From the human T2T-CHM13v2.0 reference genome, Homo sapiens: 64,000 nt of DNA. Position 1 is the stretch's first letter. Each line of letters starts with the position of its first letter. Shown here piece by piece: positions 2,640-59,545 of the stretch. The notes beneath the pieces were generated by a model. That model made no database searches, was not told where the DNA came from, and was given only the letters and a program-made list of their open reading frames with translations. The position numbers were made by a program, and so were the translations under genes. The stretch lies in the NCBI RefSeq assembly GCF_009914755.1, contig NC_060944.1; one strand, 5' to 3'.

Positions 2640-3420
2640 GAAATTAGTGCTGATCAGAACAGAAGTTTGAAGAAACTACCTGAGGCTGGAGAAAGTAGCA
2701 CCAGAAAAGAGCAGAAGGAACAATCCTCAGAGTACCAGCCCCAACAAGATAAAATTCACTATGTCTGACATTCAAAAAAAGTTATCAGGCCTGCAAAGAA
2801 ACAGGAAAATGTGATCCATAATGAGGAGAAAAATCAAATCAATAAAACAGATCAAGAATTATACAGAAGATAGAATTGGTAGACAGAGACATTAAAACAG
2901 TTCTTATAACTGTATTCCACATGTTCAAGAAGCTAGAGGAAAGATTGAAAATGATAAGTAGAGTCATGGAAGTTATTTTAAAAGATCTAAGTCTAACTTC
3001 TAGAGATGAAAAATATGGTATTTGATATGAAAAATACAATGGATAAGATTAACAGCAAATTAAACATTGCCAAAGGAAAGACTAAATAACTTGAAGACAT
3101 AGCTATAAAAACAATAAGAAATGAAACACATAGAGAAAAAAGACTTTAAAAAGAGCACATCAGCGAGCCTTGAGACAACATCAGGTGGCCTAATATATGT
3201 GTAATTAGAGACCCCAAAGGAGAAGGGAGGGTACAGAAAAAAAAGAAATAATGACCAAATAGTAATGAGCAGATAAAGACCCAAAATTTTTCAAATTTGA
3301 TGAAAACTATAAACCCATAGACCCAAGAAGTTCAACAAACCCTACATGGGAAGCATGAAGAAAATGACACCAAGGAACTTTATAATCAATTTGCTTAAAG
3401 CTATTGTTAAAGAAAAAAAT
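2640..3420 (+). mobile_element. Old L1 (L1M) ORF1-region fragment
   Basis: A-rich, with L1 ORF1-like motifs (aaacccatagacccaagaagttcaacaaacc, caccaaggaactttataatc); degenerate. Confidence 0.65.
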
Positions 3421-24860: not shown

Positions 24861-25480
24861 GAAAAGGAAGATTTCTTATAGAAAATAGGAAACAAAAAGT
24901 TCAGATGTCTGGGAGGAGATGCGGGCGGGACGTCATCTTTGAAATAAAAAAGAGTACGATTCATAGGGGAAATGTACACAAAGAGACTGTGAGTTGAGAA
25001 AAACCTGACTTGTGTTGGGGAGATTTATTCAGATTTTGGGAAGAAATTGGAAAGAACTATAAAGCTAGAGTCTGTAATTAGTTCCCATACCTGCGTAGCC
25101 GGTTCTGAGGGGTGAAGTACTCCCTAGAGCCCTTAGAGGTCTGCATTTTGCTCACAGGGCAGCTGTCTTGAGGAAAAAGATGAAGAATGGGAGTGTTATG
25201 GAGGGCATACGCCCCTCTGATCATCACCACAAAGGTAGGATCCAGCTATAAATTGCCTGCTAGAGAGTCACCAGTTCCGTCTCCATCTGTTCCCCAAACT
25301 TGTGCTTATGGATTTGACATTCAGGTATTTTTCAGAAGAATCAGCTTGAAGCAAAAATACTGAACTTAAACATTCTTTTTTTTTTTTTTTTTAAATTCAA
25401 ACCCACAATTTGAATCTTGTTTAAAAGATGGAAGGATGAGAAGTGTGATTCTCTTGGCTTGTTTAGAAATAGCCATAGCA

Positions 25481-45411: not shown

Positions 45412-46254
<843 letters not shown>

Positions 46255-50564: not shown

Positions 50565-51020
50565 TTAGCTGTAGGATACCAGCTTTTGCCATAGAAAATA
50601 CCCAGTTACAGCTCATAGAACCTAAAAGAATTTGAGTTGGCAATGGTAGGCTACAGGGAGGAAGGATAATTAAAAAAAAAAAGGCTACAGATGGAGGAGG
50701 ATGAGGCTGTAACTGCTATGATCTACAGCAAATAAGTAGCCCAGGCCTTAGGTGTTTTCATTTGTGGTTTAGGGCTCCAGAGCTTCTTTTGAATAACCAG
50801 TAAGGACCCATGACTCAGAATCATTGCTTCGAGGGCCGTATTGAGCAACTCTGAAACTAGATGCAGAACAGATGTCGTTGTAGAAGCCTAACATGCAGAG
50901 AAACTTGTAAAATATATATTTTTTTCAGGCCCTAGATTCTAAGATCCTGCTTTGCAGATCTGAAGTGGGACCCAGGAATCTTTAACAAGCTCTAAGGTAA
51001 TGGTAATGCAAAAGTTACTC

Positions 51021-52632
51021 CCTCTCCCTCTCCCTCTCCGTCTCCCTCTCCCTCTCCCCACGGTCTCCCTCTCATGCGGAGCTGAAGCTGGACTGTACTG
51101 CTGCCATCTCGGCTCACTGCAACCTCCCTGCCTGATTCTCCTGCCTCAGCCTGCCGAGTGCCTGCAATTGCAGGCACGCGCCGCCACGCCTGACTGGTTT
51201 TGGTGGAGACGGGGTTTCGCTGTGTTGGCCGGGCCGGTCTCCAGCCCCTAACCGCGAGTGATCCGCCAGCCTCGGCCTCCCGAGGTGCCGGGATTGCAGA
51301 CGGAGTCTCGTTCACTCAGTGCTCAATGGTGCCCAGGCTGGAGTGCAGTGGCGTGATCTCGGCTCACTACAACCTACACCTCCCAGCCACCTGCCTTGGC
51401 CTCCCAAAGTGCCGAGATTGCAGCCTCTGCCCGGCCGCCACCCCGTCTGGGAAGTGAGGAGTGTCTCTGCCTGGCCGCCCATCATCTGGGATGTGAGGAG
51501 CCCCTCTGCCTGGCTGCCCAGTCTGGAAAGTGAGGAGCGTCTCCTCCTGGCCGCCATCCCATCTAGGAAGTGAGGAGCGCCTCTTCCCAGCCGCCATCAC
51601 ATCTAGGAAGTGAGGAGCGTCTCTGCCCGGCCGCCCATCGTCTGAGATGTGGGGAGCGCCTCTGCCCTGCCGCCCCGTCTGGGATGTGAGGAGCGCCTCT
51701 GCCCGGCCGAGACCCCGTCTGGGAGGTGAGGAGCGTCTCTGCCCAGCCGCCCCGTCTGAGAAGTGAGGAGACCCTCTGCCTGGCAACCGCCCCGTCTGAG
51801 AAGTGAGGAGCCTCTCCGCCCGGCAGCCACCCCATCTGGGAAGTGAGGAGCGTCTCCGCCCGGCAGCCACCCCGTCCGGGAGGGAGGTGGGGGGTCAGCC
51901 CCCCCGCCCGGCCAGCCGTGCCATCCGGGAGGGAGGTGGGGGGGTCAGCCCCCCGCCTGGCCAGCCGTGCCCTCCGGGAGGGAGGTGGGGGGGTCAGCCC
52001 CCCGCCCGGCCAGCCGCCCCGTCCGGGAGGTGAGGGGCGCCTCTGCCCGGCCGCCCCTACTGGGAAGTGAGGAGCCCCTCTGCCCGGCCACCACCCCGTC
52101 TGGGAGGTGTGCCCAACAGCTCATTGAGAACGGGCCAGGATGACAATGGCGGCTTTGTGGAATAGAAAGGCGGGAAAGGTGGGGAAAAGATTGAGAAATC
52201 GGATGGTTGCCGTGTCTGTGTAGAAAGAAGTAGACATGGGAGACTTTTCATTTTGTTCTGCACTAAGAAAAATTCTTCTGCCTTGGGATCCTGTTGATCT
52301 GTGACCTTACCCCCAACCCTGTGCTCTCTGAAACATGTGCTGTGTCCACTCAGGGTTAAATGGATTAAGGGCGGTGCAAGATGTGCTTTGTTAAACAGAT
52401 GCTTGAAGGCAGCATGCTCGTTAAGAGTCATCACCAATCCCTAATCTCAAGTAATCAGGGACACAAACACTGCGGAAGGCCGCAGGGTCCTCTGCCTAGG
52501 AAAACCAGAGACCTTTGTTCACTTGTTTATCTGCTGACCTTCCCTCCACTGTTGTCCCATGACCCTGCCAAATCCCCCTCTGTGAGAAACACCCAAGAAT
52601 TATCAATAAAAAAATAAATTAAAAAAAAAAAA
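51021..52632 (+). mobile_element. Full-length SVA retrotransposon, SVA_F-type (~1.6 kb)
   Basis: (CCCTCT)n 51021-51058, Alu-like domain to ~51423, GC-rich VNTR to ~52110, SINE-R, AATAAA 52605, poly-A, TSD aaaagttactc (51010-51020 / 52629-52639); tail aataaaaaaataaatt and ctcatgcggagc are F-like features from memory. Confidence 0.96.
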
Positions 52633-53295
52633 GTTACTCAGGAGACCCTTTTAGAAATACTTAGGGAAAGATAAGCTGTCTCCTTGGGATGACTGGGCTG
52701 GTGTCTGTGCATATGCCTTCTCTGGATCCAAGTGACTTTACCACACCAAGCCTTAAGACTGCCAGACTGTTCTCTCCATTGAAAGCCATTCTGCACCACT
52801 GGCCATACAGAAGGAATCTCATATTCCAGGAGACTGGCCCAAACAGGACTGTTGAGTGGCTCTAAGGCTTTTAGACGTCAAAAGGGTTTATAAGAATAAT
52901 CATCATAATATAGTTATGAATCAGAAACATGCATACATTTTCTTAAATGACCCTGTGGGGATGAGTTAAAAAGGGAGGAGTACCCAGATGCAGGCGTCTA
53001 GCAGAATGGACTTGCTTGAGAATATCAAGCAAGACAGCCAAAGAGGACTCCTAGGATTGTCTCACCAGGACTTCTGAGGCGACTCTAATGAAATGACTTA
53101 AAAGTGTGGTGGAGTGGCTTCTGTGGCTCCCACACCTGCCTAATCCTGGTTGATATTGCACAACCAGGGTGCACTGACAATCTCTGGGAAAAAAGCAAGG
53201 TCTAATATTCAAAGCTTGGCAAACATGACCAAGACTTTTTCTCTTTCCTTTGAATTATTTTAGTTCCCTAATTTTTTGTCCCATATGCCACTTAA

Positions 53296-53730
<435 letters not shown>

Positions 53731-54268
53731 TGCACCTTTGTTATATAGAAAATTCTTATCAACATTATTGTCTACTTTTAGACTTTATTTTGTTCTATTG
53801 AACTATTCTGGTTCTAGTACCATACATTAAAATTATAGCTTTATAATACTTTTTAACATCTGACAGGATGTGCTCCCCTTATCATCCTTCTTTTTCAATA
53901 TTTTATCATTCTCACAGTTTTTCTCAGATCAACTTCACATGTAATTTACAAAAAAAATTAAAATTACATTGGTATTTAGGTGGAAATTATGTTAAATTTA
54001 TGTACTAATCTGGAGAAGTCTTGTTTCGTAATAATAATTCTTACCATGAAGGAAAATAGCTTCTCTCTCCGCTGATTCATGTTTTTTCTCATGTCTCTCA
54101 GTAGAGTTTATAGCTTTTTTTGTATAAGTTCTCATAATTGCTTGAATATATTCCTAATTATTTTATTTTTGTTGTTTTGGGTGTGAATGAGATTTGTTTT
54201 TGTTCATTTTTAATGGGTTCTTGTTGGCATATACAAAAACCACTGATTTTAAAATACTTATGTAATAA

Positions 54269-54588
<320 letters not shown>

Positions 54589-54639
54589 GACGTGTACCTA
54601 CTTTAGAACGTGTGTCTCTTATGTCAGCTTACCATTATT

Positions 54640-59545
<4,906 letters not shown>

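What the first reader, a model, noticed from the sequence alone, without database searches (positions are those of the whole stretch)
51010..52639. Sense-oriented SVA_F acting as an exon trap for upstream (ASIP) transcripts
Seen in sequence: a complete young SVA on the same strand as the candidate upstream exons. It offers AG acceptors in the Alu-like domain (ctgcctcAG 51148-51149; gagattgcAG|cctctgcc 51422-51423, the type of site used in MAST2-SVA fusions) and a terminal AATAAA/poly-A (52605-52632). Established: SVAs trap upstream exons by splicing. Recalled from published work on ASIP (verify): a fixed human-specific SVA_F in an early ASIP intron diverts transcripts into non-productive splicing, lowering ASIP output and affecting pigmentation. 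Inference: exon1-SVA chimeric RNAs are also polyadenylated, potentially retrotransposition-competent templates.
Basis: partly seen in the sequence, partly recalled or inferred. Interest (0 to 1): 0.8.

Follow-up and report, generated by a model that had tools for sequence, protein, structure and literature searches.

The report
Known SVA exon trap in ASIP
A young SVA jumping-gene copy sitting just after an untranslated ASIP exon captures part of the gene's transcripts, which is already published as a cause of darker human skin, and two copies elsewhere in the same genome record how that RNA was spliced and where it ended.

Summary
Window 51010-52639 holds a complete sense-strand SVA: CCCTCT hexamer, antisense-Alu-like part, VNTR, SINE-R, AATAAA, A-tail and a perfect 11-nt target-site duplication. 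It starts 24 nt after the donor of ASIP 5'UTR exon 2 (50929-50996).

They describe a fixed, human-specific 1.6-kb SVA F that traps exon 2 transcripts and ends them early.

- The donor is exon 2 (50996), not 23148.
- The RNA does not end at the SVA's own AATAAA. It reads through to sites further down the intron.

- Chromosome 1 carries a retrocopy of the spliced ASIP-SVA RNA, 5'-inverted by twin priming. Its exon 2-SVA junction is exactly 50996 to 51150, so the acceptor is AG 51148-51149. Its tail was added at about 53346.
- Chromosome 11 carries a full-length SVA offspring with a 1.5-kb 3' transduction that ends at 54163.

I found neither copy in print. The main finding is already known, and the additions are modest.

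The parts
25175..25234 (+). Upstream exon piece present in the chr1 retrocopy, not in the RefSeq table supplied. It is followed by a GT donor. Its true 5' end is unknown, because the retrocopy arm may be truncated.
   Evidence: 60 of 60 nt identical to L002 1058-1117; gtagga follows 25234.
45510..45892 (+). Long form of the annotated exon 45782-45892. In the retrocopied RNA it is an internal exon, with acceptor AG at 45508-45509 and donor CAG followed by gtacct. It contains a sense Alu.
   Evidence: 381 of 383 nt identical to L002 1118-1500.
50929..50996 (+). ASIP 5'UTR exon 2 (68 nt). Its donor (AAG followed by gtaatg) feeds the trap.
   Evidence: Hub annotation; AG acceptor and GT donor; the paper names exon 2 as the donor; 68 of 68 identical in the chr1 retrocopy.
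50997..51149 (+). [quoted passage not shown] It is 69% pyrimidine. A CTCAC branch-like motif has its A at 51116, 33 nt before the acceptor. There is no AG between 51086 and 51148.
51010..51020 (.). Left target-site duplication AAAAGTTACTC.
   Evidence: family D9.
51021..51073 (+). SVA (CCCTCT)n hexamer region.
51074..51422 (+). SVA Alu-like domain (antisense Alu fragments).
   Evidence: all matches outside the SVA fall in SVA positions 67-403 and hit Alu elements.
51148..51149 (+). Splice acceptor AG used by the retrocopied chimeric RNA. The trapped exon starts at 51150.
   Evidence: In L002, exon 2 ends ...CTCTAAG and is followed directly by CCTGCCGAG, which is window 51150 onward. It has the best polypyrimidine context of the 111 AGs.
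51422..51423 (+). No use at this locus was seen.
   Evidence: 7 of 16 pyrimidines and an AG within 12 nt upstream. [quoted passage not shown]
51423..52099 (+). SVA VNTR.
   Evidence: periods 37, 40, 49, 77, 156.
52100..52604 (+). SVA SINE-R domain (borders approximate).
   Evidence: at least 1518 candidates in the genome, 40 of 40 scored near-identical. The paper gives 506 bp.
52605..52628 (+). The SVA's own poly(A) signals (AATAAA 52605 and 52613, ATTAAA 52618) and A-run. Both retrocopied RNAs bypassed them.
   Evidence: the 40 nt downstream are A-rich with only 8-11 T. Searches show the read-through.
52629..52639 (.). Right target-site duplication AAAAGTTACTC.
   Evidence: family D9. It is carried along inside the chr11 offspring.
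53311..53346 (+). ATTAAA (53311-53316) and the cleavage point, about 53345/46, used by the RNA copied to chr1.
54145..54163 (+). AATATA variant signal and the cleavage point (after 54163) used by the RNA copied to chr11. The downstream region is GT-rich.
54696..54760 (+). AATAAA (54696), ATTAAA (54705) and a T9 run. This is my best candidate for the poly(A) site the paper saw in skin RNA-seq. It is inferred, not shown.
   Evidence: The paper's APARENT window is centred on the coverage fall-off. Its centre maps to about window 54736 if hg38 34222672 corresponds to window 51074; that offset is my own mapping, good to about 20 nt.

Best explanation
A full-length SVA retrotransposon inserted, in the sense orientation, 13 nt after the 5' splice site of ASIP 5'UTR exon 2. 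Its pyrimidine-rich hexamer array and the first antisense-Alu piece supply a polypyrimidine tract, a branch-like CTCAC and the AG at 51148-51149. Part of the transcripts that carry exon 2 therefore splice 50996 to 51150 instead of to the first coding exon. The captured RNA runs through the whole SVA and ignores the SVA's weak poly(A) signal. It is cleaved further down the intron: 53346 and 54163 are documented by retrocopies, and about 54.7 kb is likely in skin. Because the ASIP start codon lies in a later exon, these RNAs are non-coding and ASIP output falls. This CHM13 haplotype lacks the polymorphic inverted SVA F1 that relieves the trap, so it is the trap-active allele. The element was also a source element. 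Its own transcript gave a chr11 offspring with a 3' transduction, and a trapped ASIP-SVA RNA was copied by the L1 machinery into chr1. What is shown: the anatomy, the splice junction in the retrocopy, the read-through, and the published RNA-seq and minigene data. What is inferred: that the skin acceptor equals 51148/49, the branch point, and the 54.7-kb site.
For: Published data (PMC11319198):
- A nonpolymorphic 1.6-kb SVA F lies 3.9 kb upstream of, and opposite in orientation to, the antisense SVA F1.
- 619 reads splice exon 2 into the SVA against 4,018 reads for exon 2 to exon 3.
- Splicing into the SVA accounts for 14.1-15.6% of junctions without F1 and 3.1-5.6% in heterozygotes.
- SpliceAI gives the acceptor a probability of 0.51.
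- About 11% of transcripts splice into the SVA in a CAG-intron minigene.
- The element is absent from chimpanzee, present in Neanderthals, and fixed in the 1000 Genomes samples.

Own-genome searches:
- Exon 2 has 2 of 2 scored matches: itself and chr1 at 100%.
- The chr1 locus L002 aligns to window 25175-25234, 45508-45893, 50922-50996 and 51145-51301 on one strand, and to 52817-53346 on the other. It has a T-run and a 16-18-nt duplication.
- All three junctions are GT-AG.
- The copy differs from the window at 8 of 1189 aligned bases.
- The 3' flank has 3 of 3 matches: itself, chr11 and chr1.
- The chr11 copy is a full SVA plus the parent's AATAAA, A-run and target-site duplication, then the flank to 54163, with its own tail and 16-nt duplication.
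- No second SVA lies in the window.
Against: - The paper's main text gives no coordinate for its acceptor.
- The chr1 copy lacks window 51302-52816, so it does not show what happened inside the SVA in that RNA.
- Retrocopies report germline or early-embryo RNA, not skin RNA.
- The published aberrant-junction share (about 14-16%) is smaller than the 2.2-fold expression effect. The authors explain this by instability of the non-coding RNA, but it leaves room for other mechanisms.
- Human specificity and fixation rest on the paper alone. No ape genome was available here.
- My acceptor and poly(A) scores are crude heuristics, not trained models.
Confidence: 0.9

Rival explanations
1. One reading: trapped RNAs end at the SVA's own AATAAA/A-tail (52605-52632), giving compact exon-SVA RNAs.
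For: Canonical AATAAA is present twice, plus ATTAAA. SVAs normally use this signal when they retrotranspose (established knowledge).
Against: The paper places the poly(A) reads at the coverage fall-off between the SVA F and the F1 site and ran APARENT on hg38 34224584-34228084, entirely downstream of the SINE-R end at 34224222. Both retrocopied RNAs passed this signal. The 40 nt downstream of it are A-rich and T-poor.
Confidence: 0.1
2. The SVA lowers ASIP mainly by means other than acceptor capture. Candidates are repressive chromatin recruited to the SVA, slowed elongation through the GC-rich VNTR, or intronic polyadenylation of RNA that has not been spliced.
For: The 2.2-fold expression effect of the rescuing F1 allele exceeds the roughly 14-16% junction share. 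Several usable poly(A) sites lie within 2 kb downstream. SVA-linked intron retention is reported for TAF1 (abstract listing of PMC12632633).
Against: The minigene shows about 11% capture by the SVA alone in a foreign intron. The splicing QTL and the expression QTL share the same signal. The retrocopy proves that spliced capture occurs.
Confidence: 0.15
3. The acceptor used in skin is a different AG in the SVA, for example 51520/21 in the VNTR or 51422/23. The site 51148/49 would then be a germline-only or one-off choice.
For: The paper gives no coordinate. Its plotted SpliceAI interval maps to about window 50738-52160 by my offset, which covers the hexamer, Alu-like and VNTR parts. 51520/21 also passes my crude filter. 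The authors consider that the F1 hairpin might mask the acceptor, which could only happen for a site at or after 51423.
Against: 51148/49 is the first AG after the long pyrimidine run and the CTCAC motif, it has the best context of the 111 AGs, and it is the only site with direct evidence of use.
Confidence: 0.2
4. The chr1 element is not a retrocopy of a trapped RNA but a DNA-level rearrangement or a chance mosaic.
For: None found.
Against: Four collinear pieces from 28 kb of the ASIP locus are joined exactly at GT-AG borders. The copy has an A-tail (a 26-nt T-run on the other strand), a 16-18-nt duplication, a TTTT/AC nick site, and the inverted-5'-arm architecture with 2-3 nt of microhomology at the internal priming point.
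Confidence: 0.02

Closest known systems
The ASIP SVA F of Kamitaki et al., Nat Genet 2024 (PMC11319198)
   Same: This is the same element. It is 1.6 kb long, sense to ASIP, next to 5'UTR exon 2 and upstream of the SVA F1 site, and it traps exon 2 transcripts that then end early in the intron.
   Different: Nothing differs biologically. This CHM13 haplotype lacks the polymorphic F1.
SVA exon trapping and spliced 5' transduction (Hancks et al. 2009; the MAST2-SVA F1 subfamily)
   Same: An upstream gene exon is spliced into an AG in the SVA Alu-like domain, and the chimeric RNA is retrotransposed.
   Different: [quoted passage not shown] Here the junction is about 270 nt further 5', at 51148/49. 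The ASIP chimera left a single inverted, internally deleted copy and founded no family (2 of 2 matches). Hancks 2009 and Damert 2009 were not held, so what I say of them beyond those passages is recalled.
Disease-causing SVA exon traps (FKTN in Fukuyama dystrophy; CLN7/MFSD8 in Batten disease)
   Same: A sense SVA in a transcription unit redirects splicing and removes the normal 3' part of the mRNA (named in PMC10681720 passages).
   Different: Those are rare pathogenic alleles. This one is fixed, sits in a 5'UTR intron, is only partly penetrant, and affects a quantitative trait.
L1 twin-priming insertions (Ostertag and Kazazian 2001; recalled, not read here)
   Same: The chr1 copy has a direct 3' arm with an A-tail, an inverted 5' arm, an internal deletion, microhomology and a target-site duplication.
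   Different: The template is a cellular mRNA-SVA chimera, not an L1 RNA.
SVA source elements traced by 3' transduction (PMC12593883, passages read)
   Same: The chr11 offspring carries the parent's target-site duplication and downstream flank, which is the criterion that paper uses to confirm a source element.
   Different: That paper's passages name no chr20/ASIP source ('chr20' occurs 0 times in its main text). Its tables are supplements that I could not open.

Membership tests
SVA (SINE-VNTR-Alu) retrotransposon | 5' (CCCTCT)n hexamer array | tested here: met
   51018-51073, period 6, 9.5 copies.
SVA (SINE-VNTR-Alu) retrotransposon | Alu-like domain made of antisense Alu fragments | tested here: met
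   SVA positions 67-403 match window Alus. They match the sense Alu at about 55740-56020 on the minus strand.
SVA (SINE-VNTR-Alu) retrotransposon | GC-rich VNTR with units of 35-50 nt | tested here: met
   periods 37, 40 and 49 over 51423-52089.
SVA (SINE-VNTR-Alu) retrotransposon | SINE-R domain shared with other SVAs | tested here: met
   at least 1518 candidates, 40 of 40 scored near-identical over 486 nt. Its HERV-K origin was not tested.
SVA (SINE-VNTR-Alu) retrotransposon | AATAAA, A-tail and a target-site duplication of L1 type | tested here: met
   11-nt perfect duplication. The bottom-strand nick site reads TTTT/GC.
SVA subfamily F | Subfamily-diagnostic substitutions against the consensus library | not testable with these tools
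   No repeat consensus library was available. The call as SVA F comes from the paper.
SVA subfamily F1 (MAST2) | Hexamer and most of the Alu-like domain replaced by MAST2 exon 1 | tested here: not met
   the hexamer and the full Alu-like domain are present.
SVA exon trap | Sense orientation inside an intron, downstream of a used donor | tested here: met
   Hub annotation puts ASIP on the + strand. The SVA A-tail is at its right end. The exon 2 donor lies 24 nt upstream.
SVA exon trap | An exon-to-SVA splice junction in real RNA | tested here: met
   The retrocopy junction is 50996 to 51150. Skin RNA-seq junctions are known from the paper only.
SVA exon trap | Loss of productive host mRNA | not testable with these tools
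   Known from the paper only: the expression and splicing QTLs and the minigene.
L1-mediated twin-primed retrocopy (chr1 element) | A-tail, target-site duplication, T-rich nick site, inverted 5' arm collinear with the same RNA, internal deletion | tested here: met
SVA source element with 3' transduction (chr11 element) | The offspring carries the parent's target-site duplication and unique downstream flank, then its own tail and duplication | tested here: met

The most novel reading that the evidence does not exclude
The chr1 and chr11 copies are unreported 'fossils' of RNA from the ASIP SVA locus, and three things follow from them. (1) The trap acceptor is 51148/49, inside the Alu-like domain. 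The paper and PMC6139936 say the inverted SVA F1 lacks that domain. The published F1 rescue therefore cannot work by base-pairing with the acceptor. It would have to pair with the VNTR and SINE-R body of the trapped terminal exon and loop out all three poly(A) sites (53346, 54163, about 54.7 kb), so it would act on terminal-exon definition. (2) The ASIP SVA F was itself a source element. (3) The 1.2 to 1.5 kb of unique sequence carried in the two copies gives a minimum-age clock for the ASIP insertion, which the paper said it could not date from the SVA alone.
Probability: 0.45. Interest if true: 0.5.

Novelty: already known. Interest (0 to 1): 0.35.

Why it matters
The element is one of the clearest cases of a transposon insertion shaping a visible human trait, but that story is in print. 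The added value here is narrow and concrete:
- a base-exact acceptor and two base-exact RNA 3' ends, obtained from the genome alone;
- proof that the trapped RNA existed in the germ line and was retrotransposed;
- a constraint on how the SVA F1 allele can rescue splicing;
- a possible way to date the pigmentation-darkening insertion.

Tried and rejected
- Hancks 2009 (PMC2775590) and Damert 2009 (PMC2775593) are not held. I therefore cannot exclude that their lists of 5'- or 3'-transducing SVAs already contain the chr1 or chr11 copies.
- A second SVA in the window (the polymorphic F1): none. Outside the element, only the Alu-like part finds matches.
- Offspring that use the 54.7-kb site: none. 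With window 54585-54760, 40 of 45 candidates were scored. Only the locus itself is at 100%, and the rest are at 85% or less apart from one 37-nt stretch at 95%.
- More copies of the flank 53740-54280: of 16 scored matches, only chr20 and chr11 are real. The other 14 are at 69-79%.
- More copies of the exon 1C region: 40 of 5017 candidates were scored (48 rows). They are the locus itself, chr1 at 99%, and otherwise Alus at 87% or less.
- PMC10380656 and PMC10681720 do not mention ASIP (0 occurrences each).
- Literature searches for the retrocopy returned nothing that describes it.
- My acceptor filter and poly(A) scan are home-made heuristics. No SpliceAI, MaxEnt or APARENT was available.
Re-reading one search puts it at 3036-3051.
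Full report
**What is there**

Window 51010-52639 is a complete SVA retrotransposon on the + strand, the same strand as ASIP.
- An 11-nt perfect direct repeat, AAAAGTTACTC, brackets it at 51010-51020 and 52629-52639.
- Between the repeats lie a CCCTCT-type array at 51018-51073 and an Alu-like part that ends at 51422.
- The only relatives of the Alu-like part elsewhere in the window are Alu elements, matched in antisense.
- VNTR arrays with units of 37-49 nt span 51423-52089, followed by a SINE-R of about 500 nt.
- The element ends with AATAAA at 52605 and 52613, ATTAAA at 52618, and an A-run.
- The SINE-R has at least 1518 first-look candidates in the same genome, and all 40 of the 40 scored are near-identical. 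The copy is therefore young and close to its family's master sequence.
- I could not test the subfamily, because no consensus library was available. It is not F1, since it has both the hexamer and the Alu-like domain.

**Context**

The annotated ASIP exon 50929-50996 has an AG acceptor and an AAG/gtaatg donor. The three upstream annotated exons have donors, and the two I checked (22950 and 45782) have no acceptor AG, so they look like first exons. The 50929-50996 exon is then the optional 5'UTR 'exon 2' of the literature.

The SVA duplication starts 13 nt after that donor and the SVA body 24 nt after it. The window holds no second SVA: outside the element, only its Alu-like part finds matches. 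This haplotype therefore lacks the polymorphic SVA F1.

**What is published**

Kamitaki et al. 2024 (PMC11319198) describe exactly this element. I read the abstract, all of Main, Methods sections 14 and 17-21 and the Extended Data legends. Their findings:
- It is a nonpolymorphic 1.6-kb SVA F, 3.9 kb upstream of and opposite in orientation to an antisense 3.3-kb SVA F1.
- In GTEx skin, 619 reads join exon 2 to an acceptor in the SVA F, against 4,018 that join exon 2 to exon 3.
- The aberrant share is 14.1-15.6% without F1 and 3.1-5.6% in heterozygotes.
- The SpliceAI acceptor probability is 0.51.
- The SVA F is absent from chimpanzee, present in Neanderthals, and fixed in the 1000 Genomes samples.
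- The aberrant RNAs end at a poly(A) site at the fall-off of coverage between the two SVA positions.

The donor is exon 2 (50996), not 23148.

The end of the RNA is not the SVA's own signal. The paper ran its poly(A) predictor on hg38 34224584-34228084, wholly downstream of the SINE-R end at 34224222. If I map hg38 34222672 to window 51074 (my own offset, good to about 20 nt), the centre of that interval falls near window 54736. AATAAA (54696), ATTAAA (54705) and a T9 run lie there. This assignment is an inference.

**New evidence 1: a retrocopy of the trapped RNA**

I searched the window's own genome with the 68-nt exon 2. It gave 2 of 2 scored matches: the locus itself and chr1:185,813,991-185,814,058 at 100%.

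The chr1 locus (L002) aligns on one strand to window 25175-25234 (60 of 60), 45510-45892 (381 of 383), 50929-50996 (68 of 68) and 51150-51301 (146 of 148 aligned, plus a 4-nt gap). On the other strand it aligns to 52817-53346 (526 of 530, plus a 2-nt gap).

Each join sits on a GT-AG pair in the window: 25234/gt to ag/45510, 45892/gt to ag/50929, and 50996/gt to ag/51150.

The inverted arm ends in a 26-nt T-run. The whole insert is bracketed by a 16-18-nt duplication, (AC)ATACAGATATTCTTTT, at a TTTT/AC site. There are 2-3 nt of microhomology where the inverted arm meets the duplication.

This is the twin-priming architecture of an L1-mediated insertion. The template RNA ran from upstream ASIP 5'UTR exons, through exon 2, into the SVA at 51150. 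It passed the SVA's poly(A) signal and was cleaved about 30 nt after ATTAAA 53311.

Two caveats apply. The copy lacks 51302-52816, and it reports germline RNA, not skin RNA.

**Why this acceptor**

The new 153-nt intron is 69% pyrimidine. It has a CTCAC motif whose A lies 33 nt before the AG, and no AG between 51086 and 51148. Of the 111 AGs in the element, only 51148/49 and 51520/21 pass my crude filter; 51422/23 does not.

**New evidence 2: an offspring**

The 3' flank 52640-53430 has 3 of 3 matches: the locus itself, chr1 and chr11. The chr11 copy (about chr11:2,421,051-2,424,396) is a full SVA starting at the hexamer, with a longer VNTR (843 against 677 nt). It is followed by the parent's AATAAA, A-run and AAAAGTTACTC, then window 52640-54163 with 6 differences in 1524 nt. 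It ends with a 14-nt A-tail and is bracketed by its own 16-nt duplication. Cleavage followed an AATATA at 54145 with a GT-rich downstream region.

The ASIP SVA was therefore a source element, and its own poly(A) signal was bypassed here too. That signal has only 8-11 T in the 40 nt downstream.

**Age hints**

The chr1 copy differs from the window at 8 of 1189 aligned bases (4 at CpG). The chr11 flank differs at 6 of 1524 (3 at CpG). Three differences (51166, 51273, 52962) are shared by both copies against the window, so they lie on the source lineage or in an old allele.

Taking human-chimpanzee divergence as about 1.2% over 6-7 million years (my own knowledge), these values suggest a few million years. 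Poisson errors are wide, at a factor of two or more either way. That is compatible with a human-lineage SVA F, and it hints that the insertion is much older than the Neanderthal split.

**Consequence for the published rescue model (inference)**

The paper says F1 lacks the hexamer and the Alu-like elements. [quoted passage not shown] An acceptor at 51148/49 then has no complement in F1. Pairing could only cover 51423-52604, and it would loop out the stretch that holds all three poly(A) sites. [quoted passage not shown]

**Is the new part in print?**

Four full-text searches found no description of either copy. However, the 2009 SVA transduction papers are not held and the supplementary tables could not be opened, so earlier listing by coordinate cannot be excluded.

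**Verdict**

The retrocopy and the offspring are modest additions of a known kind.

Noticed in passing
window 25175-25234 (possible acceptor AG at 25156-25157): An exon piece with a GT donor is recorded in the chr1 retrocopy but is absent from the RefSeq exon list supplied. It may be an unannotated ASIP 5'UTR exon whose 5' end is cut off in the retrocopy.
   Followed up: partly
window 45510-45892: In the retrocopied RNA, the annotated first exon 45782-45892 is the 3' part of a 383-nt internal exon with a strong acceptor (AG at 45508-09). That exon contains a sense Alu (window about 45544-45855 by the Alu matches), so the annotated start lies inside the Alu.
   Followed up: partly
window 51166, 51273, 52962: At these three places the chr1 and chr11 copies agree with each other against the window (A vs G, C vs T, and T vs G plus a 2-nt gap). 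These are changes on the CHM13 ASIP lineage after both copies were made, or an old allele of the source.
   Followed up: partly
window about 56500-56550: This is the expected empty site of the polymorphic antisense SVA F1 (hg38 34228123, mapped with my offset). No SVA sequence is there, so CHM13 carries the ancestral allele without the rescue insertion. The RefSeq enhancer feature at 56921-57422 lies about 400 nt away.
   Followed up: partly
window 54696-55425: The candidate poly(A) site of the trapped RNA (+ strand, about 54.7 kb) lies about 700 nt from the 3' end (55425) of a long minus-strand AHCY alternative-transcript exon. The two transcription units converge here.
   Followed up: no
L008 3052 (chr11 offspring 5' end): The offspring starts with one extra G before the hexamer array, directly after its target-site duplication. 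This is what one expects from copying a capped full-length SVA RNA (my own knowledge).
   Followed up: no
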